A stretch of 64,000 bases of DNA. It comes from a virus (lineage: Duplodnaviria; Heunggongvirae; Uroviricota; Caudoviricetes). The DNA lies in the IMG/VR virus record IMGVR_UViG_3300047554_000527, positions 72,387 through 136,386 of that record, one strand, 5' to 3'. The notes beneath the pieces were generated by a model. The model made no database searches, was not told the DNA's origin, and saw nothing but the letters and a program-made list of their open reading frames with translations. A program made the position numbers and the translations under genes. This document shows positions 64 through 55,767 of the stretch, piece by piece (position 1 is the stretch's first letter; each line of letters starts with the position of its first letter).

Positions 64-513
64 TTAGAACTTGTACTTTAGACCGGCAGCAACAGTGTTA
101 CCGTCAAATGCCTTAACACGGTCTTGACCGTATTGGCGACGAGCATCAACTGTAAAATCAACTGCCTTACTCAATGGAACAGCGGCACCAACACCTACGG
201 TCATTGCGTAACCTTCAACTGCGGAACTGTTATGCAGATGAGCAACACCGAGCTTAGGAGTGATTGTGACTGGGCCTAGTTTGGCTGCGTCATAACCAAC
301 TGTTAGGCTCAAACGATCTTGATCGTTAGCTTCCTTAGTGAAACGGTCGAAGCCGGCTGTGACACCAACCTTACCATACTTTTGGCCAAGAGTAACTCCA
401 TAACCAGTGTTGTTTTCACCAACGTATTCACGGCTGGCATTAACGCCTACTTCTAATGCAGATGCGGCGGTAGCAGCCAAAGCGATCAAAGATGCGATTG
501 CAATTTTCTTCAT
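64..513 (-). CDS. Outer-membrane beta-barrel protein (OmpA-TM/Ail/Lom-like)
   Basis: Sec signal peptide MKKIAIASLIALAATAASA, alternating amphipathic strands, C-terminal GLKYKF ending in Phe (Bam signal). Confidence 0.85.
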   Translation of the reverse strand: MKKIAIASLIALAATAASALEVGVNASREYVGENNTGYGVTLGQKYGKVGVTAGFDRFTKEANDQDRLSLTVGYDAAKLGPVTITPKLGVAHLHNSSAVEGYAMTVGVGAAVPLSKAVDFTVDARRQYGQDRVKAFDGNTVAAGLKYKF

Positions 514-587: not shown

Positions 588-600
588 TAGATTCTGGGTA

Positions 601-624
601 AAAGAAAACCCGCCGAAGCGGGTT
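601..624 (-). terminator. Terminator at the end of the tmRNA coding piece
   Basis: AACCCGC-TTCG-GCGGGTT followed by TTCTTTT on the minus strand. Confidence 0.8.
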
Positions 625-945
625 CTGAGTTTCTGTTGCGAGGTATGTCTTACCCCAGGACGCTTTTAATCAAGCGGCCAATGCGTAACTTTCGTCATTT
701 GCATTTATTTTTGATTTGCTTTTTACGACTACTCCTGTCGTGCTGTCCACTCTGTTACTCTTTGCCCTGTCGAAACCATGACTGGCCCATCATAAAAGGA
801 CTAGAGCAAATACTACCACTACAACTACTACACCTATTGCTAGGCTACCTAAGTTGTCATCCATGCTAATCTCCTTTATGGTGGACCAGGCGGGAGTCGA
901 ACCCGCGTCCAGAACACTTTTCTCTTTGCTTCATACAGCAATAAC
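625..945 (-). ncRNA. ssrA: Circularly permuted two-piece tmRNA (acceptor piece ~945-879, intervening segment 878-789, coding piece 788 to ~625); tag (A)ANDESYALAA
   Basis: T-arm and acceptor end GACGCGGGTTCGACTCCCGCCTGGTCCACCA ends at 879. The 5' end GGGCCAGTCATGGTTTCGACAGGG starts at 788. GGGCCAG pairs with CTGGTCC and includes G3:U70. Tag ORF GCAAATGACGAAAGTTACGCATTGGCCGCTTGA at 702-670. The CCA piece precedes the 5' piece. Confidence 0.93.
790..864 (-). CDS. 24-aa single-pass membrane peptide MDDNLGSLAIGVVVVVVVFALVLL inside the tmRNA intervening segment
   Basis: SD AAAGGAG immediately after the CCA, 6 nt before ATG(864); uninterrupted hydrophobic stretch; TGA ends 1 nt before the tmRNA 5' G. 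Confidence 0.65.
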   Translation of the reverse strand: MDDNLGSLAIGVVVVVVVFALVLL

Positions 946-1084
946 TTATATTTAAACATCTTTTTTAAAAGATGTCAAATACTTTGGCAAACTTCCCAGG
1001 GCGTGTGGAGCCTTTACCGAGCCTTGTGTCCCTTTGCTATGCAAGATTGCCCCTGCGAAAGCGATGCAAAATTTTGCATCAAAT

Positions 1085-39835: not shown

Positions 39836-40750
39836 TCAGTTTATTTTGACTGCGCTGGCAAGTTTTTTCCAGTATTCAGTATGAAACTTAAAAAACTTAT
39901 CTAAGCCAGTATAGCCTACGTATTGGGGCTCGCAATAATCAACCGCATAGGCTGCACGAACTGCATCTGTTTTAGCAGCCTTGGTAAAAATTTCATAGAA
40001 CTCTTTGTGCTTAGTCGAATTAGTTTTAACAGGAACTAACAAATGATGCCCAACATTCATATCTGCAAAACTTGTATCAAAACCTTGCTTAACTAATGGC
40101 TGATATCCATTTACAACTTTATTGCCAGTAATACCTAATACAGAAACTTTACGTTCTGCTTTGGCATTTTCCTTGCTCCACTGTTCGGCTTCAGAAATAA
40201 AGCCAATATGAAAATCGGTTTGACCCGATACCATGCTTAACATGCTATCATTTGTGCTCTTGAACGGAATAATGTTTAAGTTAGGAAAACGCTTTTGCAT
40301 TTCAATTGCAGCCAAGTGTGTGGTTACACCTAAACCACTAATACCTACACTAACTGTTGCACCTGTTGGTACATCTTTCCATGTCTTGTACTTTGTTGAA
40401 GTGATAGCCATAGGAGCCATGCAATGAACATATTGTTCTTTGAATTGTGTTAGATCGTAGCTTTCATTTGGATAAACAACTGGGCGTACAAAGAACGCTG
40501 TGCTATGTGCTAGAATTGCATCATCTAACCCTAGTACTGTACGAGATGCAATAGTCCCCCCGGCACCTGGTTTGGTGTCGAACACAAAATTGTATTTGTC
40601 CTGAATTTTATTTGCTTCGTTAGCAATAGTACGATGATAGTTAGCTACACTATCCCCAGGCCCCCATGCATAAAAGATTGTGATATTTTCTCTAGCACAG
40701 ACGCTAGCAGAAATACTCAATGCGAATAATGTCAATAAAAATTTTTTCAT
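39836..40750 (-). CDS. tctC: Bug/TctC-like periplasmic substrate-binding protein
   Basis: Signal peptide; KPGAGGTIA, GLGVTTHLAA, IPFK ... MVSGQTD pattern. Confidence 0.75.
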   Translation of the reverse strand: MKKFLLTLFALSISASVCARENITIFYAWGPGDSVANYHRTIANEANKIQDKYNFVFDTKPGAGGTIASRTVLGLDDAILAHSTAFFVRPVVYPNESYDLTQFKEQYVHCMAPMAITSTKYKTWKDVPTGATVSVGISGLGVTTHLAAIEMQKRFPNLNIIPFKSTNDSMLSMVSGQTDFHIGFISEAEQWSKENAKAERKVSVLGITGNKVVNGYQPLVKQGFDTSFADMNVGHHLLVPVKTNSTKHKEFYEIFTKAAKTDAVRAAYAVDYCEPQYVGYTGLDKFFKFHTEYWKKLASAVKIN

Positions 40751-40753
40751 ATG

Positions 40754-41206
40754 TTATTTTAACTTTTTAAACCTCAAATAAACAAGAGGGACTAGCCCAA
40801 TCTTGTCGTATGCTTTATCAATTTCTTCATTTTTTACAAAAGTCTGTGATGAAATAATGAAAACGTTTTCTTTCTTACAAATTTCTTCAAAATAAGATTG
40901 TATCATTGATCTTATTCCTTTACCTCTGAATTTTGGATTGACCCAACTAAAATATATAAACGCCATTGGATTGTCATCATATTTTAAATCAAATACAATA
41001 AATGCAATAACGTCATTACTACTTTCAAACCAAATTACACTTTGAGAATTTTTTAAGAATACTGTAGGAAATGAATTTCCAGAATCAATTAACTCGGCTG
41101 CTTCTCTAAACAACGTCGGAACAATAGGGAGGTTATAGAGAGTTTTTGAATAGCATACACTAATTTCTATACCTTCGAGAAAAATTTGATCAATAATCAT
41201 ATCCAA
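40754..41206 (-). CDS. GNAT acetyltransferase
   Basis: WVNPKFRGKGI motif A; N..I.KAY.K.G. Confidence 0.8.
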   Translation of the reverse strand: MDMIIDQIFLEGIEISVCYSKTLYNLPIVPTLFREAAELIDSGNSFPTVFLKNSQSVIWFESSNDVIAFIVFDLKYDDNPMAFIYFSWVNPKFRGKGIRSMIQSYFEEICKKENVFIISSQTFVKNEEIDKAYDKIGLVPLVYLRFKKLK

Positions 41207-42429
41207 TCGACTTTATAGTTTAGTAACGATGTTTTCAAAAAATCTAAAGCAACTTTGTCATGGATACTTATCATTTCAAATTGATCAGTTAAGAAGATCC
41301 TGGTTCCTGGAACTTCTTGCTTATTCAATTGACTGATGTCCTGTGTCCTAACAATATTGAACAGCGATTCTAACTTTAATTTGAAATTCTTATAATAATC
41401 ATTTTTGTCAAGGTCGTAGATATAATCACGAGCCGAGGCCTTATATGTAGGAATACTTCTTTGTATTTTTTGACCGTTGTTATTATTAACCATACTCCAC
41501 AACTGATATTCTGTTCCGTTAAACCAATTAAAGATTCTATAGATTGCTGTTTTATAATCTAGATGATCGTTGAAATATAGTGCTCCCCTAACTGAACAAT
41601 TTAGATATTTTACATTAAAAATCAACCACCAAAAAAAGTCATGAAGGCTATATACAGGAACTGATGCAGTTTGTATATTCCAATGATATTTTTCATAAAG
41701 CATTCTACCAAAGTTAGGGTTTGAATTGATCGAAAGGTGTTTGACTATTAAATCTTGATAGACACTGTAATGCACATCGCCGGAAGATATTTTGTTTTTT
41801 AACAAATTTAATCGATGCTTAACCAAAGGAGAAAGGTCGCTTATATAATAATCGTAATTGTTATAAAGTGTTAATCCCATTAGGGTTCCAAATATACAAT
41901 CTCCCTCGTCTGCTGTAATAGGAGTTAATCCCTGATGAATTAATGTGTCGTACTTTACTGTTTTAGAATCAATTACTTTAAATTTTCCGTAGATAAACTT
42001 GCTCCAAAATAACGGGTTCTCAATTACAGAATCCACGCTGGCGCAGACCACTATAGATTCTAATTCAGTTTGGTTTAGATTTTTTATAAGGGCAGATAAA
42101 ACAACTGTGCTATCTATACCTCCAGAATACATAACAACAAACTTTTCTCCTGTGTGTATTCTATTTTTTATTTCCAGTGCTCTGTTATCACATACTTCTT
42201 TAAATGACAAATTAAATTTAGAATCATATTCGGGCATCTCAAAGCCAGGTATTACTGTCTGTTTCCAGGGCAAAGACCATTCACCGTTCCTGGAAACAAA
42301 TCTACTGGGATTTACTCTTTTCGAGATGTCGATAAAAAATTTGCCAGCAGTATCACACTCGTTGTAGAGATTGTTTAGGATTTGATCTTGATGACCGTTA
42401 AAGCTCAGACTATGAAAATAAAGATTCAT
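41197..42429 (-). CDS. PP-loop (adenine nucleotide alpha-hydrolase; asparagine synthetase C-domain-like) enzyme
   Basis: VVMYSGGIDSTVV; ITADEGDCIFG. Confidence 0.6.
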   Translation of the reverse strand: MNLYFHSLSFNGHQDQILNNLYNECDTAGKFFIDISKRVNPSRFVSRNGEWSLPWKQTVIPGFEMPEYDSKFNLSFKEVCDNRALEIKNRIHTGEKFVVMYSGGIDSTVVLSALIKNLNQTELESIVVCASVDSVIENPLFWSKFIYGKFKVIDSKTVKYDTLIHQGLTPITADEGDCIFGTLMGLTLYNNYDYYISDLSPLVKHRLNLLKNKISSGDVHYSVYQDLIVKHLSINSNPNFGRMLYEKYHWNIQTASVPVYSLHDFFWWLIFNVKYLNCSVRGALYFNDHLDYKTAIYRIFNWFNGTEYQLWSMVNNNNGQKIQRSIPTYKASARDYIYDLDKNDYYKNFKLKLESLFNIVRTQDISQLNKQEVPGTRIFLTDQFEMISIHDKVALDFLKTSLLNYKVDWI

Positions 42430-43109
42430 ACTAGATATTCCGATAATGAACTAGGTATATCTAAATTAAATTGCGGTGATTCCTCTTGGAGAATTTTATA
42501 GAACCTGTCCTTCATCCAAACTCGATCATTTGAATGTTCATTCCATATAGATTCAATTTTGTTTCTTGCAGTATCTTTATTGTCAGAAATATAAAGTGCT
42601 TGTCGTATCTTGAAGAAAATCTGTTCAGAATCGAGCATTGTATTCAACGATATTGTTAAACTTTCTATTTCATTTTGCTGAATAACTTTCTTTAAAATAA
42701 AAGAATTATTATTAAAAATCTTTTCGATTAAAGATACAGCATGAGAGCATTGATGTACAAAGTTTGCATATTCTATTAGCTCGTTTAAATTACTATCATT
42801 ATCGTTAGTCGATAGTTCTTGTATATTTGTATGATCGATAAAACGATAAACTGGTGTTTGTCCAGATACTAGTATAGAACTATATCCTATCTTTTCTTTT
42901 GTTTTATCGATAATATGAAACTTAAGACAATTACTGTTATCTAAAGTTGAATGATTAACAGAATACACAATTGACGAAACTTTAGAGGATAACAATTCTG
43001 CAGTCTGAAATGTTACATTTAAATCGTGATTATCGACCAATATAAATCTGTCAAGACCTTTTGCATATATGGCATAACATCCTGTGTAGAATTTTTTAAA
43101 GTTAATCAT
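42426..43109 (-). CDS. Hypothetical protein
   Basis: 227-aa AT-rich ORF with ATGA overlaps. Confidence 0.6.
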   Translation of the reverse strand: MINFKKFYTGCYAIYAKGLDRFILVDNHDLNVTFQTAELLSSKVSSIVYSVNHSTLDNSNCLKFHIIDKTKEKIGYSSILVSGQTPVYRFIDHTNIQELSTNDNDSNLNELIEYANFVHQCSHAVSLIEKIFNNNSFILKKVIQQNEIESLTISLNTMLDSEQIFFKIRQALYISDNKDTARNKIESIWNEHSNDRVWMKDRFYKILQEESPQFNLDIPSSLSEYLV

Positions 43110-43380
43110 TTTTTCTCTTTAGAGCTTCCTCGGCCATGGCCTTTTGTAAATGAGGCCACTGTTTCATATCTTCGTAAATGTTGATTATACCACGAGCGGC
43201 ATGTTGTTTAAATTTCCAAGGAAGTACTGCATGAATGTAACTGCTAATGACATATTTTAATAATCGATTACCGTTAGAAAAACTATGCCTGAAGTGATAC
43301 CAGTAAGTCATATTACTATCTCGAAGATGTTTTTTAGACTTTTCTAGTACTGTATATTGATTGCTTGAAGGATTGTTCAT
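43102..43380 (-). CDS. Small His-containing protein (DUF6356-like)
   Basis: HLRDSNMTYWYHFRHSF...IHAVLP pattern. Confidence 0.5.
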   Translation of the reverse strand: MNNPSSNQYTVLEKSKKHLRDSNMTYWYHFRHSFSNGNRLLKYVISSYIHAVLPWKFKQHAARGIINIYEDMKQWPHLQKAMAEEALKRKND

Positions 43381-43836
43381 TTATAGTCTTTTGTAAAGTT
43401 TGTAATATCCAATTTTTAATCCATCCTTTTCTGCAGATTTTAATCGAATAGTATTATTCGGATGAACTGTTGCCGCTGTTACATTACAGCCTAAACGTTT
43501 AGCAATCATTTCAAAATATTTGTTCATTATTGTATGTATTCCCTGTCCTCTATGATCTTTATCGACAGATGTTAGACATACATTTAATATCTTGTACTTC
43601 AATTGGTCAGTATGATAGGCAAAAATTGCAACAATCTTTTCATCAATTTCTCCCCAAATGATACCTGTTGTTTCGTCGTCCCAGGAAGTAAAACTACTCC
43701 CATGTCCGTTTTCAATTAATTCTGCAACTTGCCTAAGATAAAAGGGAAAGGCCGGAGTAAATGCCATAGAGCTACTATGTTTGATGACCATTAGTCTGCC
43801 ATCCTTTATTATTTCTTGAGAAAGAGTTTCGATCAT
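43381..43836 (-). CDS. GNAT acetyltransferase
   Basis: VDKDHRGQGI motif A; VHPNN. Confidence 0.8.
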   Translation of the reverse strand: MIETLSQEIIKDGRLMVIKHSSSMAFTPAFPFYLRQVAELIENGHGSSFTSWDDETTGIIWGEIDEKIVAIFAYHTDQLKYKILNVCLTSVDKDHRGQGIHTIMNKYFEMIAKRLGCNVTAATVHPNNTIRLKSAEKDGLKIGYYKLYKRL

Positions 43837-43850
43837 ATTTTTTCCTGAGT

Positions 43851-43860
43851 TAAATATTTA
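43851..43860. promoter_or_regulatory. Palindromic bidirectional late-type promoter TAAATATTTA
   Basis: TAAATA on both strands between the divergent GNAT and iscA genes. Confidence 0.55.
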
Positions 43861-43893
43861 ACGCTCGGCTTCTAAAAGATAATTAAACTTGAA

Positions 43894-44220
43894 ATGATAA
43901 CATTCACCGAATTAGCATTGAAAAAAATAAAAACACAATTGGAAAAGCGTGGTAAGGGTGTAGGTATCCGAATTGGGGTAAAAACTACTGGTTGCTCTGG
44001 TCTGGCTTATGTGCTAGAATATGTTGATGAATATATCTACGAAACTAGTGTTATAAACTACGCCCAAAAAGACTTTGCAGTTTTGATTGATCGAAAACAC
44101 GAACCTTACCTGCAAGGCATGACTGTAGATTATATTCGTGAAGGTCTCAATGAAGGATTTAAATTTATTAATCCCAACGAACGAGATCGGTGTGGTTGTG
44201 GTGAATCATTTAGGGTATAA
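43894..44220 (+). CDS. iscA: Fe-S assembly protein IscA
   Basis: GIRIGVKTTGCSGLAYVLEYVD; EGFKFINPNE...CGCGESF. Confidence 0.93.
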   Translation: MITFTELALKKIKTQLEKRGKGVGIRIGVKTTGCSGLAYVLEYVDEYIYETSVINYAQKDFAVLIDRKHEPYLQGMTVDYIREGLNEGFKFINPNERDRCGCGESFRV

Positions 44221-44221
44221 A

Positions 44222-44473
44222 ATGGAAAACATAGAAGAAAAGATTAAAGATATTATGGCTAAATCTTTCCTAATCGAACGCACTCGGTTAGAGGACGATG
44301 CCCACTTGCAAGACGACCTAGGCGTCGATAGTCTTGGCCTGTTTGAAATGGTTATCAACTTAGAAGATGAATATGGTATTGAGCTAAATGACAAAGAACT
44401 TCTAAAATTTGCCCGAGTTGGACAAGCTGTAGAAGTTCTTGCTAGATTGATTAGAGAACAGGTCAAGCCTTAA
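44222..44473 (+). CDS. acpP: Acyl carrier protein
   Basis: DDLGVDSL phosphopantetheine Ser; LEDEYGIE. Confidence 0.88.
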   Translation: MENIEEKIKDIMAKSFLIERTRLEDDAHLQDDLGVDSLGLFEMVINLEDEYGIELNDKELLKFARVGQAVEVLARLIREQVKP

Positions 44474-44694
44474 GGCTTACTGTCGTAGTCTTTTACACGG
44501 CCACCGTAATGTACTGATTTGGCTTTACGGCCTTTGATGTAGTTACCGTGGCCGTCCGTATGACCTTTACCCTTAGATTGATGCGGGCGTAGTCCTTGGC
44601 TTACACAGGAGTTATGATCGCTCCTGCCCAAACGTTTGGGACTACGACATACTTTAGGATCTGTTTTTTCGGATATAAATTCAAAGGCTCTCAT
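44470..44694 (-). CDS. Small basic protein with head-targeting-like N-terminus
   Basis: MRAFEFISE; TAAATA immediately upstream. Confidence 0.55.
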   Translation of the reverse strand: MRAFEFISEKTDPKVCRSPKRLGRSDHNSCVSQGLRPHQSKGKGHTDGHGNYIKGRKAKSVHYGGRVKDYDSKP

Positions 44695-44702
44695 ATTTCT
44701 AT

Positions 44703-45305
44703 TTAGCGTTTTTCAACATAGAAAATATGATTACCTACTTTGGCTTCACGCTTTAAATTGTGCCAGCGTGGGTTTATCCTACTGCTGTGAAAATACAGCC
44801 ATTCGCCCATGAGAGAATGATGTAGATCGTAGCCGCCCGACAATAAGTTTCTTGCCACTTCGAGACTTTCTTGCCAGCGCTGATCGCTTTCCTTGATCCT
44901 GCGGGTAATTGCACATACCCAACTGAACTGACAGACTGCAACACGATCAACTACTGTGCGAGTTTCAACATGCTGTTCTGTCTTTTTAAAGGGACCCCAT
45001 CCTGTAACAACTTCTTTAATTGTCCTAATTTCTCTAGGACGCTCAAAAACTGTTTTCTGTTTAACAACTTCACAAACTGAGTTTGGGAAGCTAGGATGCT
45101 GTGTCCTGTTTAGAGTAACCATTCCAACGGCAATCTTGCCTTTTTCTGGTTCCCCGCCCGATTCAAAATAGATGTTACGTGCCAAACACATAAGCTCTTT
45201 TTGATCGATTTTACTGGTGCCGTTATCGTATGCAGCCGCTACGCCACTTGATAAAAACATCAGGCCTATTACTGTTGTGGCTACTGTTTTCAGTAGTTTA
45301 GACAT
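44703..45305 (-). CDS. Cell wall hydrolase (SleB/Hydrolase_2)
   Basis: Signal/TM segment; CLARNIYFES, VTLNR, CQFSW, GNHIFY. Confidence 0.9.
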   Translation of the reverse strand: MSKLLKTVATTVIGLMFLSSGVAAAYDNGTSKIDQKELMCLARNIYFESGGEPEKGKIAVGMVTLNRTQHPSFPNSVCEVVKQKTVFERPREIRTIKEVVTGWGPFKKTEQHVETRTVVDRVAVCQFSWVCAITRRIKESDQRWQESLEVARNLLSGGYDLHHSLMGEWLYFHSSRINPRWHNLKREAKVGNHIFYVEKR

Positions 45306-45339
45306 TGGTATGCCCTCCTTTTTTAAGAATGTAAGAATA

Positions 45340-45392
45340 ATTATAACACAGAAAAGAAAACCCGTCAAGATGTGGGATTTTTGACGGGTTTT
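45340..45392 (-). promoter_or_regulatory. Sigma70 promoter whose -35 lies in a terminator stem
   Basis: TTGACG (45368-63), 17 nt spacer, TATAAT (45345-40); inverted repeat AAAACCCGTCAA/TTGACGGGTTTT. Confidence 0.8.
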
Positions 45393-45400
45393 GGTAAATT

Positions 45401-46084
45401 TTACACTAGTTTCTTGTTGAGAGAAAAATATCGTTGTATATAATGAGATGTAAGATCGTTAAGCATTGTCTGCTCAGCTGATCCAAAGGTCAGCCCTGTA
45501 AAATTTTCTATTTGCGACTGTACAATAGAAGGATTAAGAAACAAATTTTTAAATTCAATTTTTAATACATTTGAATCCTGAGGTATATTAACGCAAAAAA
45601 ATCCGTCTAATAATTTTTGATAAATTAATATTTTTATAAATGTTGCTTTTTCTGTTTCAGTGAGTTCAGACGGCGTAGCATCCGTATTACTGAATAAATG
45701 AGAATGATTTTGCAATATTTTTCTAAAAAATTGAGAAGAAGAAATTTCATATGCTTCGACAAAAAATGATTGATAATAAGCTCGGGCAATATGATTACAG
45801 TCTTCTAATCTATGTGTCAATACAACAATTTTACATTCAGGAAATCTCGAATTTAATTTTTGATAATCTGGAGTAAATGGTACTGAAATTACTCGATTGC
45901 CGTCAGGTATTATACAGTTTTCAAAAAAGAAATCTTTTGTTAGTTCTCCATTTAATGGTTGAGTGTAAGAAATTGAGTTGAAATCTAAAATTTCCGTACC
46001 TTGACAAACATTACTAATTAATCTACTAATGAAATTTCCGGAAGACCCGGGAGTAGCACATACAAAATAAAGATTTCTACTCAT
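45401..46084 (-). CDS. Hypothetical protein, sulfotransferase-like fold
   Basis: N-terminal FVCATPGSSGNFI loop, late IEFKNL segment; degenerate. Confidence 0.4.
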   Translation of the reverse strand: MSRNLYFVCATPGSSGNFISRLISNVCQGTEILDFNSISYTQPLNGELTKDFFFENCIIPDGNRVISVPFTPDYQKLNSRFPECKIVVLTHRLEDCNHIARAYYQSFFVEAYEISSSQFFRKILQNHSHLFSNTDATPSELTETEKATFIKILIYQKLLDGFFCVNIPQDSNVLKIEFKNLFLNPSIVQSQIENFTGLTFGSAEQTMLNDLTSHYIQRYFSLNKKLV

Positions 46085-46578
46085 GTGTTGGTTCCTTGAT
46101 ATAAAGTAAGAGAAATACCATTTTGATACATATCTGCTACTTCGCTAAAAGTTGTTGGCAAGTTAGACCATTCTTCAGTGTTTTCAACATGGTTACTTTC
46201 GATAGTAACTACTTTTTCTTCTTCTAGCGTCCAACCTAAGTCAGGAAGAAGTATATCTCGCTTAGTGGCATAGTCGTCATACGCATCATTTTTTCTCAAA
46301 TAGTTAATTAACATATCAACATCTACTGTCCCAAAAACATAATATGATACTAACGGTTCTAAAGGGTTTGAGAAAAATAGATACCCTGTACCGGCTTCAT
46401 AACTGGTAATTTCATTAATGTAGGTTTTGTAAGCTAGAGCTGCCTGAAGATAATCAATTAATTTTAAAAATTTTTCATCCTCGAGAGGTAACGCAAGAAG
46501 TGCATCTGGGGACCCCCAGCAAGTGTAGTCTGCCAAATTACTCAAATTTACTTTTCTAATAATTAAATGTAGTTGCAT
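46081..46578 (-). CDS. Hypothetical protein
   Basis: 165-aa ORF; TAAATA upstream. Confidence 0.55.
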   Translation of the reverse strand: MQLHLIIRKVNLSNLADYTCWGSPDALLALPLEDEKFLKLIDYLQAALAYKTYINEITSYEAGTGYLFFSNPLEPLVSYYVFGTVDVDMLINYLRKNDAYDDYATKRDILLPDLGWTLEEEKVVTIESNHVENTEEWSNLPTTFSEVADMYQNGISLTLYQGTNT

Positions 46579-46594
46579 AGGTGTATTTACCTAA

Positions 46595-47137
46595 TTAAAT
46601 AGGGCATATTACCAGATGAATCCTAGGATCTAATCCGCCGTTATATACAAAATGATGCTTTGTAGTATCAACTTTGTAGAAATATCCATCTGCGGGCATG
46701 TGAAAACATACTGCGCCTATGTTACCCGCCCGAAACACCTGTGCCATGTATGCATTGGAGTTTGTCTGTAATACTAAATGATATCTAACAGATGTATCTG
46801 CATGTACTGTGAGTCCTGCTTTAGAAGGTAATCTCATCAGTCGAACTCTACCCAATTTAAAGTTTTCAACAACCGCTAGTTCTTGTATCTTATCTAACAA
46901 GTATTTAGGAATAGCAGAATTTATTTCTGTGAATTCGTATTCATTAGCAATGTCTTCGCCAGCTTCTCTATTGTAAAGACTACCAACACAATCTTTCCAA
47001 ATATCACCCTGTACAATTTTTCTGTGTGTGAGTCCTATTTGATTTTCGACTCCCCACGAGGTTAGTGTTAAGATGTGATCGAGATTCCGATTTACTTCAT
47101 TAAGGTCAGCAGTTAAATTAACTTTTTCGATAAACAT
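46595..47137 (-). CDS. 2OG-Fe(II) oxygenase (Asp/Asn beta-hydroxylase-like)
   Basis: GRVRLM, HAD...RYHL, H..YNGG..RIHL. Confidence 0.75.
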   Translation of the reverse strand: MFIEKVNLTADLNEVNRNLDHILTLTSWGVENQIGLTHRKIVQGDIWKDCVGSLYNREAGEDIANEYEFTEINSAIPKYLLDKIQELAVVENFKLGRVRLMRLPSKAGLTVHADTSVRYHLVLQTNSNAYMAQVFRAGNIGAVCFHMPADGYFYKVDTTKHHFVYNGGLDPRIHLVICPI

Positions 47138-47140
47138 AAA

Positions 47141-47683
47141 TTATTTAATTCCTATTACCATGTAGCGTTTAAAACTCCAGTCAGGATACACAAATTCCTT
47201 TTCTCCCTTAAACATAATCTTAGATAATGGATATTCTTCAACAAAATCATCTAGTGTTTCGCTGTGTGTAATATGATCTTTGTGAGGCATGTTATTACCC
47301 TGAAGGACAACACTAGTTCCTTGAGGTAAAGACTCAAACCATTGCTTACTTTCAAAATGTTCAGTACTGGTGTTGATCACAAGATCGCCGTACTGTCCTT
47401 CAAAGTTATTACAGTCTTGAGTAAATGCCTTGAACTTCCAATCTTGCCAAACCCAGTTTTCGTTTATCATGTCTGCAATAGATTGACAGGCAGGATCAAT
47501 ATCTAAACTACGAATTTTATTAACTTGAAACTTACCTCTGCTTAATAATAGAAATGCAGTTAGCCCGTACCAGCCTCCATAGATATATGTTAGATTAGAT
47601 GTTAATCCCAAACGTTCTAATTCTTCACAAAGCCAAATCTTACTACCTATTTGTCCGCTGCTGAAAGCATCTTTATCAATCAT
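47141..47683 (-). CDS. SAM-dependent methyltransferase-like protein
   Basis: YIYGGWYG, SLDID, VINTSTEH. Confidence 0.55.
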   Translation of the reverse strand: MIDKDAFSSGQIGSKIWLCEELERLGLTSNLTYIYGGWYGLTAFLLLSRGKFQVNKIRSLDIDPACQSIADMINENWVWQDWKFKAFTQDCNNFEGQYGDLVINTSTEHFESKQWFESLPQGTSVVLQGNNMPHKDHITHSETLDDFVEEYPLSKIMFKGEKEFVYPDWSFKRYMVIGIK

Positions 47684-49037
47684 TTAAAAACTTTCCTTTA
47701 GGGTTGTGACCTATAACTCGCGTGTTAGGGTGTAGAAACGATATAAACTTATCATATCTAGACTGACTGCCTTTTAACCCGTATAGACCAATTAAGAAGT
47801 CAGTAGAAAATATATTAGAAATATGTAACAAACATTTACTATCGGCTATTTCGTTTAGCAGATTAAAATAATCTTGTACTAGGTCTGTTCTTATAAATTT
47901 AACAGGCGTGGATCTAAACTGGTTTAAGTAATGATTAAAGTTACCTTGATAGTATTCAACAGTTTTCTTGAACCCTTCTAAGAAACCTGCGGCCAACACT
48001 CCGTTTGTGATAATAGGAGGGTTGTCTTGTCCAAACCATTTTAAATTATTAGCATGTTCAAATGTTTCTACTAGTTCTTTAATATCGTACGATTTCGATG
48101 TATAGATATGCTTGATCCAATCTAGGCTAATTTGATTGTAGTCATAGATCAATATCTCGCCGTTACTGGTAAGAGCATTTGATTGGAATACATCTAGATA
48201 TTTGAAGCCACTAGCAGGTAGTGCAACAATCTCATATTGCCGGCCTCGATTATGAACGTGCATGTGTTCGCTATTAATTGCCCACACTTGGTGACCAACT
48301 CCTGTAATCATTTCGTTAATTAATCGCAACTGATTAAAGTTATTAACACCCGGCATAATCTTTCTATTCTTATAGGAATGATAAAAGGCAAAGCTACTGG
48401 TCTCTGGATAATAATATGTACGCTTACTTCTAATCTTCTGATTCCAATTGATTATCTCTAGGCCTGCCTTTAATGCTTTGTCTATAAAGTTCCAACCTTG
48501 TTTGCAATGAAACTGAGGCCTGCGGTTTCCAGTGTCTTTGATCCACAGAGGAGTATAGTCGTCGTGAAAGTTCTCTGCGCTACGTTCAACAACTACTATA
48601 TCATCAACAGCCGGTGCCCAACTACCGTACTTGGGCTTGTCTATATTTTTCCAATTATCAGTATTGACTAGGACAAACTGATGGTGTAACTCGTACCACT
48701 TCTCTTTCCATTCTAATATATGCGCCGCCGCAAGATAGTTGGGTGTCCTTTTAATTTCATCTACTATGTCTAACAATATTGATGAGTCGTATATCCTAAC
48801 ACCTGCTGCCATAAACAAAATATGCTTGTATTGGTCAGCATATTGTTCTAGGCCTTGATCAATACTAGGTGCATAAACAATATCGAGATTAAAACTAACT
48901 TCTTCTAACCTATGTGCATAAAATGTAGTATAGTCAGTCATTAACTCTTCTAACTGACGATGTCTCAACATGTCAGAAGGAAAGATACAGATTGCAATAT
49001 TAATATCATTAACAAAGGTACGTTCTACTACAATCAT
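47676..49037 (-). CDS. Hypothetical enzyme (possible GT-like N-domain)
   Basis: 453 aa; YELHHQFVL..., DDYTPLW motifs. Confidence 0.5.
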   Translation of the reverse strand: MIVVERTFVNDINIAICIFPSDMLRHRQLEELMTDYTTFYAHRLEEVSFNLDIVYAPSIDQGLEQYADQYKHILFMAAGVRIYDSSILLDIVDEIKRTPNYLAAAHILEWKEKWYELHHQFVLVNTDNWKNIDKPKYGSWAPAVDDIVVVERSAENFHDDYTPLWIKDTGNRRPQFHCKQGWNFIDKALKAGLEIINWNQKIRSKRTYYYPETSSFAFYHSYKNRKIMPGVNNFNQLRLINEMITGVGHQVWAINSEHMHVHNRGRQYEIVALPASGFKYLDVFQSNALTSNGEILIYDYNQISLDWIKHIYTSKSYDIKELVETFEHANNLKWFGQDNPPIITNGVLAAGFLEGFKKTVEYYQGNFNHYLNQFRSTPVKFIRTDLVQDYFNLLNEIADSKCLLHISNIFSTDFLIGLYGLKGSQSRYDKFISFLHPNTRVIGHNPKGKFLND

Positions 49038-49720
49038 AATTGTTTCAGTGAATCTGTTATTAATTTATACATCATAGCAGTTGGCTGGCCGTGAATGATA
49101 ATATGATGTCTATATTCATTAGATTCATTTACAACAACATGCTCTTTGCCAATATCTAGCATAAACCCTCTTCCAACTTTAAAAGGTACAGTTCCATAGT
49201 CTTTAAAAATAAATCGGCAACCTTTAGGTTGTGTCAGTGCAAAGTTTAAAGGACCAAATATCCTTCCAGGACCATCTACATGCGGCATTATATAACCACC
49301 AGGTGCAAGTTGCATTATCCTAACACGACCAAACTTACTGTATGGTAGTCCTTTAATCAAATTAACTATATACGGGCAGTACTCACACACTTCAGTCCAT
49401 CTATATGCAGAATCGTCTGTGTGCCCGTATCTATCGTAATGTTCAGTCTTATCGTAATCTAGTCCGTGTAATGTCAGGCCAGCCCAACCTTCGTGTCCAT
49501 AGCTGTTAATCTTATCCTTATCTCTATGTGGTACAAAATAGTATTGCAGTTTGTCCAATTCTTGTTTAACAGTTTCTACATCAAGGTTGCAGAACACAGG
49601 TGCCCAAGGCCAATCGCTGGTCCAGAGGTTACTAGGCAATGTTCCCGGAGTCCATGTTTTCTGCTCGTTTGATTCTATAAAACTGTTTAAAAGATTATTC
49701 ATATATTTTAATAGACTCAA
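49034..49720 (-). CDS. 2OG-Fe(II) oxygenase (Asp/Asn beta-hydroxylase-like)
   Basis: GRVRIMQLAPGGYIMPHVD, EHVVVN..RHHIIIH. Confidence 0.82.
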   Translation of the reverse strand: MSLLKYMNNLLNSFIESNEQKTWTPGTLPSNLWTSDWPWAPVFCNLDVETVKQELDKLQYYFVPHRDKDKINSYGHEGWAGLTLHGLDYDKTEHYDRYGHTDDSAYRWTEVCEYCPYIVNLIKGLPYSKFGRVRIMQLAPGGYIMPHVDGPGRIFGPLNFALTQPKGCRFIFKDYGTVPFKVGRGFMLDIGKEHVVVNESNEYRHHIIIHGQPTAMMYKLITDSLKQL

Positions 49721-50630
49721 TAGATCTAAAGGTTGTTAGTACTTCGTGATTCCATTTCAGCTTCGATGGGTGTCTATAAGCCTTCCAATGCAATGGGTTA
49801 GGATCGTATTTTAAAAAATTACCGTCAATGATTAACTCACCTATAACCATTCTACCTAGAGACATTTCATTTAGATTATGATAAGGTATTTTCTTTTGTA
49901 ATTCGGGTGGCAGCTTTTTAACCCAGTTTTGAAAGAATGATATAGTTTGTACAGGTAAATGATCTGCATTAAAATTTAACCATGTTTCTGCTGCAAATCT
50001 CTTTTGAGGTTTAACCATGTCTCTTGCCACAACTTCAACGTCATCATCCTTAGCAACCGCAAACCAATCCTTGCCTAGGGTATTATAACCTAAATAAAGT
50101 TTCCCCCAAGACAGACCGTATTCTAAATATAGCTTGTCTTCGTCTTTAACTGGAAGGTGCAGACCGATAGGATGTATATCGTACAGGACCCCAAATCCTC
50201 CCCATGTGCCAGATTTAGTAATCATCGCATCTTCGCACATATGAATATGTTCATTTAATGCAAAAAAGTTTGTTTTTAACGTTTCTGTTAGCCTGCCTTT
50301 AAACGCCAGCTCATCCATTCTCTGACCAAATATCTCAAACTCTTCGTGCAGATAGTTTAGTTTCTGATTGTCTAACTCGTCGAACGTACTAATTTCCTTA
50401 TCGTACTCAACTGCAATTCTTGCAACAATATCTTTAATCTGTTGTGTGATTTCAGGAACGTCTAGCTCTGACCTATTGTTAAACACACTAGATATTTTAT
50501 GATCGGGGTTCTTTAAATTGGTGTTAGTAAGATCTACCCACTTATCACTCAAATGCGTAGGGTATATATTATATTTTAAAGAGTGTATCTTATCAAACTT
50601 ATCTTTAATTTTAACTTCTAATATCTTCAT
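49695..50630 (-). CDS. Hypothetical protein
   Basis: 311 aa; LNYLHEEFE, LNEHIH motifs. Confidence 0.55.
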   Translation of the reverse strand: MKILEVKIKDKFDKIHSLKYNIYPTHLSDKWVDLTNTNLKNPDHKISSVFNNRSELDVPEITQQIKDIVARIAVEYDKEISTFDELDNQKLNYLHEEFEIFGQRMDELAFKGRLTETLKTNFFALNEHIHMCEDAMITKSGTWGGFGVLYDIHPIGLHLPVKDEDKLYLEYGLSWGKLYLGYNTLGKDWFAVAKDDDVEVVARDMVKPQKRFAAETWLNFNADHLPVQTISFFQNWVKKLPPELQKKIPYHNLNEMSLGRMVIGELIIDGNFLKYDPNPLHWKAYRHPSKLKWNHEVLTTFRSIESIKIYE

Positions 50631-51865
50631 AGTAGGTCTGTAAAAAACTTGCTGTTAGTATGTCTCAGTTGGTCTAACTTAACTATATATTCTTTAGTTT
50701 GGTCTAGCAAATGACTCCAGTCTTCGCTGTTCATAAAGTCTGCCATTTTCTTTAAACGTTGAATACTAGGGTTATCTGTATTAGCTGCCGCATAGTTATA
50801 GATTTTTTCAGTAATCTTGGCCTTAGTTTGTTTAGGTAGTGCCTTGGCGCAAAGATATTGTGGATAGTGTAGAATGCCTGTATGAAATATGCCGTCGAGT
50901 CTAGGCTTACTGATCTTCTTATAGTTCTGACGCAACAACCAATCGGCAAACTCAGGAAGGTAATAGATATTTAGAGCCTGAACGGTGCAGAGTATCTTAA
51001 TGTCTATGTTTGCAGGTGTTTGATCATAAAGGTGCAGGTTCCGTTCAATTGTATCCCAGTCTGCTGGATAACGAATGTAATCGTTTATTTCCTTACCGCC
51101 ATCAATGCTGATCATAACATCTACATACTTAAATTTAGTCCAAAGATCTACAACTTCCTTATCATAGATTGTGCCGTTAGTGTGGTATCGTAGTTCAATA
51201 TGTTTAGCCGCGTTTAGATCGACTAGCTTCTTTAATATGTCTTTGTGTTCTTTGATGTACAAAGGCTCACCGCCACCAAATATAATATGACGTAGGTCTT
51301 TGGCAGATTCATAAAAGTCTTTTAAGAACTCTGCATCTTTATACCATTCGAAGTTATTTGTAGAATAGCTTTCTACCTTATGCTTCCAGTCCCAACGTGC
51401 ATCTGTCTTTAGTTCTTGTTTTAGAATTGTAGCATGTTTAACCCATTTACTAGAATCAATAGGCCTGCACATTACACATTGTAGATTACAGGTATTGCCT
51501 AATCGTAGATCAAGCGTGATCCAATCTACATCTAGTGAGCCATCTGGGTTAGTTTTACTAACTAACTCTTTGATATAGTCTTCACCTAGTTTGTTTTTCC
51601 AAATGTGATTTTCTATTTGTCTATGACTGTAGATACCTACAGCTTCTTCCTTATAGCAGGACGAACAATGCTTTACCTGTCGTCCTGCTAGCATGTCTAG
51701 TCTTGCAGATTTAAAATGATCGCTATTCCATACTTCTTTTAAAGACATATTGTTTAGATTAAGACCCTTTTCGCTGTTAGAAATGCAACAGAGTAATGCA
51801 CTACCATCGGTATAGGTAGCCATGTGTGTCCAGGGCAATATGCAGAATGTTTTTGAATTACTCAT
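50627..51865 (-). CDS. Radical SAM protein with N-terminal twitch/SPASM-like domain
   Basis: FCILPW...LCC...CSSCY; CNLQCVMC; FGGGEPL; HTNGT. Confidence 0.9.
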   Translation of the reverse strand: MSNSKTFCILPWTHMATYTDGSALLCCISNSEKGLNLNNMSLKEVWNSDHFKSARLDMLAGRQVKHCSSCYKEEAVGIYSHRQIENHIWKNKLGEDYIKELVSKTNPDGSLDVDWITLDLRLGNTCNLQCVMCRPIDSSKWVKHATILKQELKTDARWDWKHKVESYSTNNFEWYKDAEFLKDFYESAKDLRHIIFGGGEPLYIKEHKDILKKLVDLNAAKHIELRYHTNGTIYDKEVVDLWTKFKYVDVMISIDGGKEINDYIRYPADWDTIERNLHLYDQTPANIDIKILCTVQALNIYYLPEFADWLLRQNYKKISKPRLDGIFHTGILHYPQYLCAKALPKQTKAKITEKIYNYAAANTDNPSIQRLKKMADFMNSEDWSHLLDQTKEYIVKLDQLRHTNSKFFTDLL

Positions 51866-53174
51866 TGATTAGGTCCGCAAGTTCAGTGCTGATTGATCTT
51901 AGACTTTGATCGCGCTCAACATCAAGACTATGAGTATAGTCTTTAAATCTACGCATTTGATCTTCCCAATCCGTAGCACGAGGTTTTTGTAGTAGGCCTA
52001 TAATGCCATTTACGCTATTAACAGTTAGTTCAGGAGTTTGGCCGGTAAAGTTTGCATCTCTATAGGCAATTAACTCGTTGGCAACTCTTGTTCTAATATC
52101 ATCGGGCAGTATAGACACAGAAAGGTGTGCAGGATGAACATTGATAAGAAAATCAACAAATATGCTTTTCTTATATTTCTTGTTTAGGTCATCTACCCAT
52201 TTAAGAGTATCGACTAGGTTAAACACATTATAAGTCTGTACTGTAGGAGTTACTCCTAAATGCACATTAGGCATTTGTGCAAGTGTTTCTACGTTTGCAC
52301 TAATCTGCGCCCAATGGCTCGGACTACGGACGTAGTCATTAACTTCTCCGACTCCGTCTATACTGGCATTGATATTAACTCTTCCAAATTGTCCAATAAG
52401 GTTTGTAAATTTCTTATTAACGTTAGTACAGTTAGTATTAAAGAATAAAGTTATGTCGCGACGACCTCGGCGAATACACTCTTCCATAAACTTAAAATTA
52501 TTTTGGATAAGTGTAGGTTCGCCGCCAGTCATATATACTTTCTTTAGACTAGGGATTAGATCAATAATCTGATCCCAAAGTACATCTCCGTCGAACCAAG
52601 GTTGCAGGTCCATGATCCTTTGATCAAATCTACCAAAACTTTTAGCCCATACAAGTTTATATTTTTCGTCTTTCTTTTCTAATTCAATATGCTCTTTCGC
52701 AATCTGACTGCTGTTAAAAGGGTTGCACATTCTACACTTAAGGTTACAGAGATTGCCTAGACGCAGATCTAAATAGGCAATACTGTAGTCTAACTCTCCT
52801 CCTGTAAGAACAGCCCGGTCAATAAGTTTGTACATTGTCTGTTCGCCTAGTCTCCCACTCCACTCAGTATTAGAGTACTGTCTATTACTGATTCTTCCAC
52901 TGCTCTCTTGTAAGTAACAGACTTTACAACCGTCTAATGCTTCTCCATTAACCATAGCAGTCCTAATGTTTTTCATTTCGGCTGAATTCCAAGCATCTTC
53001 TAGTTTGTCTTTGATTGTTATCCTGTTGCCTTCTTTGTCTAGAATTCTGTGGGTGCCTCGCTTCATCATACAACAAGGTTGAATAGTTGCATCCGTATTA
53101 ACTACCATACTAACAAAAGGTATGGCACAGAATGTAGGCATCACATCATCGATATCTTTAGTAAATTTGTTCAT
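51858..53174 (-). CDS. Radical SAM protein with N-terminal twitch/SPASM-like domain
   Basis: FCAIPF...PCC...CKVCY; CNLKCRMC; TGGEPT; NTNCT. Confidence 0.9.
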   Translation of the reverse strand: MNKFTKDIDDVMPTFCAIPFVSMVVNTDATIQPCCMMKRGTHRILDKEGNRITIKDKLEDAWNSAEMKNIRTAMVNGEALDGCKVCYLQESSGRISNRQYSNTEWSGRLGEQTMYKLIDRAVLTGGELDYSIAYLDLRLGNLCNLKCRMCNPFNSSQIAKEHIELEKKDEKYKLVWAKSFGRFDQRIMDLQPWFDGDVLWDQIIDLIPSLKKVYMTGGEPTLIQNNFKFMEECIRRGRRDITLFFNTNCTNVNKKFTNLIGQFGRVNINASIDGVGEVNDYVRSPSHWAQISANVETLAQMPNVHLGVTPTVQTYNVFNLVDTLKWVDDLNKKYKKSIFVDFLINVHPAHLSVSILPDDIRTRVANELIAYRDANFTGQTPELTVNSVNGIIGLLQKPRATDWEDQMRRFKDYTHSLDVERDQSLRSISTELADLINE

Positions 53175-55262: not shown

Positions 55263-55767
55263 ATAATTTGGTTGTATAGAAAGTTAGATCATCGGTGCCT
55301 GTATAATCAATATCAATTGAACCTCTTACCAAATCTGTAGGATCTAGATCACAATGCCAAATAGGTAGATAAGGATTATTCTTTTTGCAAGCAACAATGT
55401 TTAACTTTTTATGTGAATACTGGCTATCTGACTTCCACCATTCTAATGAGGATTTTATTATTGTTACTTGTACTGTTTTTGTTGCTACATCTTGAATTAC
55501 AGTTACTTCTGCTTTCTCTAAATTATTATCAAATTTAATAACTCTAGATTTTATTGACTGTGCAACAATCGCAGATTGTGTTCTTTGCTTAATGTAACAA
55601 CCGTCCGGTCTAACTATCGCATAATATCTAACAACCTTTTCTTTTCCTAAAAAGATCTGTTCAGCAATAGGAGAGTCAGTTTCAAAATAGCTGCCATCTC
55701 TTCCAGGAACGGGTTTATGAGACAGACCTAGAATATTTCCGCTGTTAGGATCATAATAGACAATCAT
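55228..55767 (-). CDS. Hypothetical protein
   Basis: 179-aa ORF with overlaps. Confidence 0.55.
   Translation of the reverse strand: MIVYYDPNSGNILGLSHKPVPGRDGSYFETDSPIAEQIFLGKEKVVRYYAIVRPDGCYIKQRTQSAIVAQSIKSRVIKFDNNLEKAEVTVIQDVATKTVQVTIIKSSLEWWKSDSQYSHKKLNIVACKKNNPYLPIWHCDLDPTDLVRGSIDIDYTGTDDLTFYTTKLFDSYKHEVKPS

What the first reader, a model, noticed from the sequence alone, without database searches (positions are those of the whole stretch)
601..978. Phage-encoded circularly permuted (two-piece) tmRNA with an ANDESYALAA tag
Seen: the acceptor piece (T-arm, CTGGTCC-ACCA) lies upstream of the piece starting GGGCCAG. That second piece carries the resume context ATAAAT-GCA and the tag ANDESYALAA*, and ends at a UUCG terminator. 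The acceptor stem has the G3:U70 AlaRS determinant. Established: two-piece tmRNAs are known from Alphaproteobacteria, some cyanobacteria and a betaproteobacterial lineage (Dechloromonas); the C-terminal ALAA is a ClpXP degron. Inference: the phage supplies its own ribosome rescue, possibly countering host tmRNA/tRNA-cleaving defences. No smpB lies in this window, so host SmpB is probably used. The coding piece (~165 nt) is very compact.
Basis: partly seen in the sequence, partly recalled or inferred. Interest (0 to 1): 0.78.

Follow-up and report, generated by a model that had tools for sequence, protein, structure and literature searches.

The report
Phage two-piece tmRNA with nested mini-gene

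Summary
Window 603-992 (minus strand) is a complete circularly permuted tmRNA gene of the betaproteobacterial type (Rfam RF01850 129 bits, E 5e-39; RF04321 130 bits; ARAGORN tag ANDESYALAA). It lies among phage genes (dCMP deaminase, ThyX, NrdAB, tail fibres) on a 140-kb IMG/VR virus record. Across about 70 related loci, the acceptor stem formed between the two pieces and helix P2a covary, and G3:U70 is invariant.

The class is not new. Two-piece tmRNAs are published for phages (Melnitz; 53 unique ones among 18,146 phage genomes) and are annotated in Stenotrophomonas phages. The window's gene sits in a virus-only clade whose nearest sampled cellular relatives are Alcaligenaceae. No SmpB is encoded in the record. 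The coding piece (about 186 nt) is of normal size, not compact.

The 90-nt intervening segment carries AAGGAG, an ATG and a 24-codon hydrophobic ORF. I found this family in 47 viral loci (32 distinct peptides). All are intact, all indels are in frame, and pN/pS is lowest in frame. Its SD and stop codon are paired in the precursor's closing helix. This scan has noted spacer ORFs before on other phage DNA, and this one separately on this window. I found no paper describing them.

The parts
950..978 (-). Promoter-like site for the tmRNA gene: TTGACA (978-973), 17 nt, TTAAAT (955-950). A 9-bp inverted repeat (975-967 / 964-956) lies between the hexamers.
   Evidence: Sequence reading. It aligns with the promoter positions included in the RF01850 model. 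The strict consensus scan did not call it because A2 of the -10 hexamer is missing.
879..940 (-). Acceptor piece (about 62 nt): P2d strand TGCTG 940-936, P2a strand 916-911, T-arm 906-890, acceptor 3' strand 889-883, discriminator A882, encoded CCA 881-879. The 5' end is not mapped.
   Evidence: CM alignments; sequence; covariation of acceptor stem and P2a.
789..878 (-). Intervening segment (90 nt) removed during maturation. Its two ends form a closing helix that extends the acceptor stem.
   Evidence: A 72-nt insertion relative to the Rfam model. Precursor fold -41.7 kcal/mol, z -2.9. Consensus fold of 11 relatives keeps the helix.
790..876 (-). Mini-gene inside the spacer: SD AAGGAG 876-871, ATG 864-862, 24 codons (MDDNLGSLAIGVVVVVVVFALVLL), stop TGA 792-790, one base before G1 of the coding piece.
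   Evidence: Family of 47 loci, 34 unique ORFs, all intact, 22-26 codons, in-frame indels only; pN/pS 0.59 in frame against 0.75 and 1.53 off frame.
603..788 (-). Coding piece (about 186 nt): acceptor 5' strand GGGCCAG 788-782, P2a strand 768-763, P2d strand 745-741, hairpin 740-726, tag ORF, downstream hairpins, terminal hairpin.
   Evidence: CM alignments; sequence.
670..702 (-). Tag reading frame: resume codon GCA 702-700, ANDESYALAA, stop TGA 672-670.
   Evidence: ARAGORN coding part 270-302 of the gene; sequence.
600..626 (-). 3' terminal hairpin with UUCG loop followed by a U-run (intrinsic terminator and conserved 3' hairpin of beta-type tmRNA).
   Evidence: Matches the last helix of RF01850; sequence. 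The simple terminator scan did not list it, probably because greedy stem extension uses up the U-run.

Best explanation
This is a functional-looking, phage-encoded, circularly permuted tmRNA gene of the betaproteobacterial structural type. It is transcribed from its own sigma-70-like promoter as one precursor of roughly 340 nt: acceptor piece, 90-nt spacer, coding piece, terminator. Inferred from how two-piece tmRNAs mature in Caulobacter and other bacteria: RNase P cuts 5' of G788, and the 3' end is trimmed back to the encoded CCA at 879. This releases a piece of about 62 nt and a piece of about 186 nt. They stay paired through the 7-bp acceptor stem (with G3:U70), P2a and P2d. Host AlaRS would charge the RNA with alanine, and host SmpB would deliver it to stalled ribosomes. 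Translation would resume at GCA and add ANDESYALAA, a ClpXP-type degron. The gene is part of a very large phage translation kit: 46 tRNAs in one array, a CUA-anticodon tRNA, and another tRNA-Met. In addition, the excised spacer carries a real small gene for a 24-aa hydrophobic (single-helix membrane) peptide. Its SD and stop codon are locked in the precursor's closing helix, so the tmRNA precursor or its excised spacer probably also serves as an mRNA. Shown here: sequence features, CM scores, covariation, phage context, conservation of the reading frame. Inferred: processing, charging, SmpB use, tagging, translation of the peptide.
For: Identity: RF01850 129.2 bits against cut-off 84, E 4.6e-39; RF04321 129.7 bits against 47; ARAGORN permuted call with tag. 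Two-piece tRNA-like domain: the acceptor stem between pieces is 7/7 paired in 13 different sequence variants, and G3:U70 is present in 67/67 loci. P2a has at least 5/6 pairs in 75/75 loci across 24 variants with compensatory changes. Phage context: IMG/VR virus record; neighbours are dCMP deaminase, ThyX, NrdB and NrdA, plus tail fibre, baseplate and virion proteins and a DNA ligase. NrdA is closest to Xanthomonas X1/BUDD, Ralstonia RSP15 and Stenotrophomonas Menderavirus phages, which carry permuted tmRNAs at the matching position. The DNA recurs in freshwater/aquatic metagenomes of at least 3 studies. Lineage: the window falls in a 38-row virus-only clade, SH-aLRT 97. Spacer gene: SD plus ATG plus ORF intact in 47 loci and 34 unique sequences; lengths of 22-26 codons mean indels are in frame only; pN/pS is 0.59 in frame against 0.75 and 1.53 off frame; the hydrophobic profile is kept at about 63% nucleotide identity; no conserved RNA pairs are predicted in the ORF's middle. 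Two contigs from an RNA library (relatives) span acceptor end, spacer and coding start and keep the ORF, one with an in-frame 3-nt deletion.
Against: There is no direct evidence of expression, processing, alanylation or tagging for this phage. The RNA-library records are assembled contigs of relatives and could derive from DNA carry-over. The middle of helix 2 is non-canonical in both CM alignments. An unconstrained two-strand MFE fold does not recover the canonical tRNA-like domain. The promoter fails the strict consensus scan. For the mini-gene: the SD is base-paired in the predicted precursor, which could block translation. The last five or so codons are also constrained by that helix. pS is near saturation, so the pN/pS contrast is modest. 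The peptide has no significant match to any PHROG family or cultured phage.
Confidence: 0.8

Rival explanations
1. The tmRNA is real, but the spacer ORF is not translated. Its conservation would reflect RNA-level needs of precursor processing (the closing helix, an RNase P leader), and the open frame would be incidental.
For: The SD and the ORF's 3' end with its stop pair with each other in 11/11 family members and are nearly invariant. Cellular and cultured-phage spacers also form closing helices without any ORF. The pN/pS contrast between frames is modest.
Against: The variable middle of the ORF has no predicted conserved pairing, yet it stays open in 34 unique sequences with in-frame indels only (22, 23, 24, 26 codons) and a conserved hydrophobic profile. 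A strong SD at ideal spacing from the ATG is conserved. Other viral tmRNA spacers hold unrelated ORFs of 38-73 aa behind the same SD position.
Confidence: 0.2
2. The phage tmRNA does not mainly rescue ribosomes for the phage's benefit. It acts as a competitor or decoy of the host tmRNA, or it serves to tag and destroy host proteins for recycling, as speculated for Melnitz.
For: Speculated in PMC9004378. A CDS-less phage tmRNA-like RNA (DS6A) inhibits host tmRNA when expressed in E. coli, according to PMC11915505. The phage encodes no SmpB in the sequence held, so it must compete for the host's.
Against: The gene keeps every element of a working tmRNA, including an intact tag frame with resume codon and ALAA end. 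Nothing distinguishes it from cellular beta-type genes apart from the spacer.
Confidence: 0.12
3. The gene is a passively carried piece of host DNA (an att-site remnant, a transduced fragment or an assembly chimera), not a phage gene.
For: tmRNA genes are common prophage integration sites. Some IMG/VR contigs in my sample group with cellular tmRNAs and have short spacers (for example L086 with L364/L365).
Against: The gene is complete, with its own promoter-like site and terminator, and sits between phage genes on both sides. It belongs to a virus-only clade. The locus recurs in independent metagenomes. A syntenic permuted tmRNA next to nrdA occurs in cultured lytic phages.
Confidence: 0.03

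Closest known systems
Two-piece tmRNA of Methylophilales phage Melnitz and related pelagimyophages (Buchholz et al. 2022, PMC9004378; MZ577097)
   Same: A phage-encoded, circularly permuted tmRNA in a large aquatic T4-like phage, near thyX and nucleotide-metabolism genes, with no phage SmpB reported. A long spacer (140 nt in Melnitz) begins with a GGAG plus ATG ORF that GenBank does not annotate.
   Different: Melnitz is alpha-type (RF01849, 106.7 bits) and the window is beta-type (RF01850). Melnitz has a glutamine riboswitch just downstream; Rfam found none in the window at gathering score. The spacer ORFs are unrelated. The Melnitz ORF was not tested for conservation here.
Permuted tmRNAs of Stenotrophomonas Menderavirus phages (for example Marzo MZ326868, annotated tmRNA), Xanthomonas phage X1 and Synechococcus phage BUCT-ZZ01
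   Same: Beta-type or permuted CM hits (RF04321 77-119 bits). In Marzo and X1 the gene lies beside nrdA or in the tRNA region. NrdA is 53-60% identical to the window's.
   Different: Tags differ (for example VAANDDSYTVRIAA). Their spacers of 57-126 nt have closing helices but no SD-led ORF. Their tmRNAs lie on long branches of the tree.
Cellular beta-type two-piece tmRNA (Rfam RF01850; Sharkady and Williams 2004 as cited in PMC9004378), here Alcaligenaceae MAGs and Pelistega
   Same: Same architecture. The tag ANDESYALAA is identical in three Alcaligenaceae genomes. They are the nearest sampled cellular group in the tree.
   Different: Only about 73-76% identity over the alignable coding-piece stretches, higher (88-91%) over the short T-arm segment. 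Spacers are 24-45 nt with no ORF in the six cellular genes examined. The type is rare in that order: 4 of 151 sampled genomes score above the cut-off.
tmRNA genes interrupted by group I introns that may carry homing-endonuclease ORFs (PMC11915505)
   Same: A protein-coding ORF sits inside a tmRNA gene, in a part removed from the mature RNA.
   Different: There the ORF lies in a self-splicing intron in the T-loop and encodes a mobility enzyme. Here it lies in the permutation spacer, which is removed by tRNA-processing enzymes, and encodes a tiny membrane peptide.

Membership tests
Circularly permuted (two-piece) tmRNA, beta type (Rfam RF01850 / RF04321) | Covariance-model score above the curated gathering score over the full model | tested here: met
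   RF01850 129.2 bits against 84, model positions 1-331. RF04321 129.7 bits against 47, model positions 1-213.
Circularly permuted (two-piece) tmRNA, beta type (Rfam RF01850 / RF04321) | Permuted gene order: the T-arm and CCA-bearing acceptor piece lies upstream of the piece that starts with the acceptor 5' strand and carries the tag | tested here: met
   ARAGORN permuted call; sequence reading.
Circularly permuted (two-piece) tmRNA, beta type (Rfam RF01850 / RF04321) | Acceptor stem formed in trans, with the G3:U70 alanine identity pair and an encoded CCA | tested here: met
   GGGCCAG pairs with CTGGTCC, followed by ACCA. Thirteen covarying stem variants are all 7/7 paired, and G3:U70 is present in 67/67 loci.
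Circularly permuted (two-piece) tmRNA, beta type (Rfam RF01850 / RF04321) | Helix 2 joining the two pieces | tested here: inconclusive
   P2a pairs in 75/75 loci with compensatory changes, and P2d TGCTG/CAGCA pairs in the CM alignment. The middle helix is non-canonical in both CM alignments, and the unconstrained MFE co-fold did not recover the domain.
Circularly permuted (two-piece) tmRNA, beta type (Rfam RF01850 / RF04321) | Tag reading frame with an alanine resume codon, a C-terminal (L)AA degron and a stop codon | tested here: met
   GCA 702-700, ANDESYALAA, TGA 672-670.
Circularly permuted (two-piece) tmRNA, beta type (Rfam RF01850 / RF04321) | Precursor processed into two RNAs; alanylation; SmpB-dependent trans-translation | not testable with these tools
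   Only assembled contigs from RNA libraries of relatives were available. They cannot show RNA ends.
Phage-encoded tmRNA | Gene lies within a bona fide phage genome, flanked by phage genes | tested here: met
   Virus record; PHROG hits for nucleotide-metabolism and tail/virion proteins; virus-only tmRNA clade.
Translated small ORF (membrane micro-protein) | SD at proper spacing, a start codon, a frame kept open across diverged relatives, in-frame indels, excess of synonymous change | tested here: met
   34 unique ORFs are all intact at 22-26 codons. pN/pS is 0.59 in frame against 0.75 and 1.53 off frame.
Type I toxin-like peptide with structure-gated translation (hok, tisB, aapA1 type) | Small hydrophobic peptide; SD sequestered by long-range pairing that processing relieves; antisense RNA antitoxin; toxicity | tested here: inconclusive
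   The hydrophobic 24-aa peptide and SD sequestration in the closing helix are seen. I did not look for an antisense RNA. Toxicity is not testable here. This is considered only as an analogy.

The most novel reading that the evidence does not exclude
The tmRNA precursor is a dual-function transcript in which tmRNA maturation gates the synthesis of a membrane peptide. The SD and stop codon of the 24-aa ORF are locked in the helix that presents the RNase P and 3'-trimming sites. Either a ribosome loads co-transcriptionally before the helix closes, or the excised 90-nt spacer becomes translatable after its 3' arm is trimmed, as with type I toxin mRNAs. The peptide would then act on the host membrane (takeover, exclusion or lysis timing). 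More generally, the permutation spacer of phage tmRNA genes would be an exchangeable expression slot for small genes.
Probability: 0.3. Interest if true: 0.75.

Novelty: new variant of a known kind. Interest (0 to 1): 0.5.

Why it matters
As a tmRNA alone, this is one more member of a documented class of phage two-piece tmRNAs, and it mainly improves annotation. It does add two points. Beta-type two-piece tmRNAs form a large virus-only clade in freshwater phages. Related aquatic phages also carry different tmRNA types at similar genome positions: alpha-type in Melnitz, beta-type here. The more consequential point is the gene layout. The part of a stable-RNA precursor assumed to be discarded encodes a conserved micro-protein, which gene callers and tmRNA annotators both miss. 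If it is translated, phage tmRNA genes are bifunctional loci. That would link stable-RNA processing to expression of small membrane peptides and expose a hidden set of phage micro-proteins.

Tried and rejected
1. An unconstrained RNAcofold of the two mature pieces did not give the canonical acceptor/P2 pairing. I rejected it as a test because MFE folding is unreliable for tmRNA, and used covariation instead.
2. My first cellular scan pattern (resume context plus ANDE) was too generic and returned many unrelated phyla. Only four loci were useful.
3. Host assignment through the neighbouring OMP gene failed. The family is overwhelmingly viral in the ESM Atlas, although one homologue at 68% identity sits in a cellular-looking metagenome contig of unnamed taxon. 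The host remains unknown.
4. The Pfam Gp23 search of the record gave only a marginal 30-position hit (24.8 bits), so I do not rest 'T4-like' on it.
5. A regex search for P2d covariation failed to anchor, finding 1 locus. P2d rests on the CM alignment only.
6. RNA-library runs held only small shares of the stretch, as assembled contigs of relatives. They cannot show RNA ends, levels or strand, and parts without cover mean nothing.
7. The peptide has no significant PHROG match (E 0.14) and no tblastn match in cultured phages.
8. The strict promoter/terminator scan called neither the tmRNA promoter nor its terminator. Both are read from the sequence and from the Rfam alignment.
9. I could not read Sharkady and Williams 2004 because it is not held.

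Full report
OBSERVATION. The feature is real and lies on the minus strand. ARAGORN reports a permuted tmRNA at 579-971 with tag ANDESYALAA. Rfam reports beta_tmRNA (RF01850) at 603-992, 129.2 bits against a gathering score of 84, E 4.6e-39. It also reports the general tmRNA_permuted model (RF04321) at 670-940, 129.7 bits against 47. Reading the strand gives the following anatomy:
- a promoter-like TTGACA (978-973), 17 nt, TTAAAT (955-950);
- an acceptor piece of about 62 nt (940-879) with T-arm 906-890, acceptor 3' strand CTGGTCC 889-883, discriminator A and encoded CCA (881-879);
- a 90-nt intervening segment (878-789);
- a coding piece of about 186 nt (788-603) that starts GGGCCAG, giving G3:U70;
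- the resume codon GCA (702-700) after ATAAAT, ten tag codons and TGA (672-670);
- a UUCG-loop hairpin with a U-run (626-600).
The piece aligns end to end with the beta model and matches cellular beta-type genes in size.

IS IT A TWO-PIECE tRNA-LIKE DOMAIN? I collected about 120 IMG/VR loci with a conserved 14-mer of the coding piece, further viral loci and cellular loci. In 67 loci with both pieces, the 7-bp acceptor stem formed between the pieces occurs in 13 different sequence variants, all fully paired. One further locus scored 4/7 and looks mis-registered. G3:U70 is present in 67/67. Helix P2a has at least 5 of 6 pairs in 75/75 loci across 24 variants, with clear compensatory changes. The middle of helix 2 is non-canonical in both CM alignments. 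An unconstrained two-strand MFE fold does not recover the domain. I treat the first as a lineage peculiarity and the second as a limit of MFE folding. Both are recorded as evidence against.

IS IT PHAGE-BORNE? The window is bases 72387-136386 of a 140,615-bp IMG/VR virus record, about 39% complete by CheckV. The gene is flanked by a beta-barrel OMP gene, a fatty-acid-desaturase-like gene, dCMP deaminase, ThyX, NrdB and NrdA. Further along are virion, baseplate and tail-fibre proteins and a DNA ligase. The record holds 46 tRNAs in one array, a CUA-anticodon tRNA and another tRNA-Met. It has no SmpB. The stretch recurs in freshwater/aquatic metagenomes of at least three studies, which argues against an assembly chimera. 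Earlier notes of this scan on the same genome describe a curli operon, hemO-pcyX and NAD+ salvage (not re-tested here). These are the hallmarks of Melnitz- or pelagimyophage-like aquatic T4-like phages.

WHAT IS KNOWN. Phage two-piece tmRNAs are published. Melnitz carries one, and ARAGORN suggested 53 unique two-piece tmRNAs among 18,146 phage genomes, mostly aquatic (PMC9004378). The 2025 tmRNA database lists 79 phage tmRNAs (PMC11915505). The window's NrdA is 53-60% identical to those of Xanthomonas phages X1 and BUDD, Ralstonia RSP15 and Stenotrophomonas Menderavirus phages. Marzo has an annotated permuted tmRNA beside nrdA. X1 and Synechococcus phage BUCT-ZZ01 have unannotated ones. So the class is known and this is a new member.

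LINEAGE. In a tree of mature sequences with the spacer removed (78 rows, about 250 columns, low resolution), the window falls in a 38-row virus-only clade (SH-aLRT 97). The nearest sampled cellular group is Alcaligenaceae MAGs, Pelistega and one unnamed 2-Mb genome. Three Alcaligenaceae share the exact tag ANDESYALAA, but identity over the alignable coding-piece stretches is only about 73-76%. The closest viral relatives have other tags, so tag identity may be convergence. Beta-type permuted tmRNA is rare in that bacterial order: 4 of 151 sampled genomes score above the cut-off. Melnitz's gene is alpha-type (RF01849, 106.7 bits). Related aquatic phages therefore carry different tmRNA types. 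The host of this phage remains unknown. The OMP gene was no help because its family is overwhelmingly viral.

THE SPACER IS A GENE. Directly after the CCA the spacer reads AAGGAG (876-871), six bases, then ATG (864). Twenty-four codons follow, giving MDDNLGSLAIGVVVVVVVFALVLL, then TGA (792-790), one base before G1 of the coding piece. I found this before consulting earlier notes.
- Family size: 47 viral loci, 34 unique ORF sequences, 32 distinct peptides.
- Integrity: all are intact. Lengths are 22, 23, 24 or 26 codons, so every indel is in frame.
- Selection: outside the helix-constrained end, pN/pS is 0.59 in frame against 0.75 and 1.53 in the shifted frames. In the first nine members it was 0.48 against 0.70 and 1.76.
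- Conserved pattern: an acidic N-terminus, a glycine near position 11, and a hydrophobic run to the C-terminus (mean Kyte-Doolittle about 3.0-3.5).
- No conserved RNA pairing is predicted in the ORF's middle.
- Two contigs from a freshwater RNA library, from relatives, bridge acceptor end, spacer and coding start. Both keep the ORF, one with an in-frame 3-nt deletion. This is weak evidence because contigs cannot prove RNA origin.
Cellular beta-type genes have 24-45 nt spacers and no SD-led ORF, whereas the viral median is 86 nt. Of 73 permuted loci parsed at that stage (nearly all viral), 27 have an SD-led ORF of at least 15 aa starting within 30 nt of the CCA. These include unrelated families of 38-73 aa. 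Melnitz also has an unannotated GGAG plus ATG ORF in its 140-nt spacer, which I did not test for conservation.

PRECURSOR STRUCTURE. The precursor folds so that the acceptor stem continues into a closing helix. This helix pairs the SD region with the last codons and the stop of the mini-ORF (-41.7 kcal/mol, z -2.9). A consensus fold keeps the helix in 11/11 relatives, mostly through invariant pairs, with one compensatory pair and several one-sided changes. This explains the near-invariance of the ORF's 3' end. It also suggests that translation is either co-transcriptional or follows processing. That step is inference.

LITERATURE ON THE SPACER GENE. Four full-text searches and readings of the tmRNA database papers turned up no description of a coding ORF in a tmRNA intervening segment. 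The nearest published analogue is the group I intron, sometimes carrying a homing-endonuclease ORF, in tmRNA T-loops (PMC11915505). This scan has noted spacer ORFs repeatedly on other phage DNA.

VERDICT. The novelty is overstated, the compactness claim is wrong, and the anti-defence role is untested. The tmRNA itself is a new member of a known kind. With the nested mini-gene, the locus is a new variant of a known kind.

Noticed in passing
window 64-513 (-), promoter 587-558, terminator 45-22: A 149-aa outer-membrane beta-barrel protein (YfaZ/OMP_b-brl-like, with a signal peptide and a C-terminal F) lies directly downstream of the tmRNA. It has a perfect 12/12 sigma-70 consensus promoter and its own terminator. 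Hundreds of homologues at 62-99% identity exist, and the ESM Atlas clusters are almost all viral ('cyanophage outer membrane protein-like').
   Followed up: partly
window 956-975: A 9-bp inverted repeat (ACATCTTTT / AAAAGATGT, 2-nt centre) sits exactly between the -35 and -10 hexamers of the tmRNA promoter. It could be an operator or a weak hairpin.
   Followed up: no
   Followed up: partly
L399:1572-1748 (Melnitz MZ577097, about 46084-46260): The published Melnitz two-piece tmRNA has a 140-nt spacer starting with GGAG plus ATG. Its ORF (about 54 aa from the ATG) runs into the mature coding piece. GenBank annotates only the tmRNA feature there. The glutamine riboswitch (RF01739, 52.8 bits) lies just 3' of the tmRNA.
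   Followed up: partly
L010, L063, L082, L090 (spacers of 101 nt); L104, L044, L022, L120, L016 (spacers of 155-248 nt): Other IMG/VR permuted tmRNA genes hold unrelated SD-led ORFs in the same slot. These include a 38-aa CxxC-containing family (four loci) and single ORFs of 56-73 aa.
   Followed up: partly
L229 / L362 (contig of a 'Chloroflexota bacterium' MAG): An AT-rich contig binned into a Chloroflexota MAG carries a divergent permuted tmRNA (tag ANDESYAMAA, RF01850 90 bits) with a consensus promoter. It may be a mis-binned phage contig.
   Followed up: no
window 40001-58000: G+C drops to 0.33-0.39 from 0.43-0.47 in the preceding 18 kb. The low-GC block includes a radical-SAM protein (51858-53174) and several ORFs with no PHROG match.
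   Followed up: no
L003:2252-2569 and 2477-2851 (phage Marzo): ARAGORN makes two overlapping tmRNA calls in Marzo: a spurious standard-form call spanning tRNA-Pro and tRNA-Leu, and the real permuted one. GenBank records of sister phages annotate the same stretch variously as tRNA-Leu, tRNA-OTHER, tmRNA or nothing.
   Followed up: no
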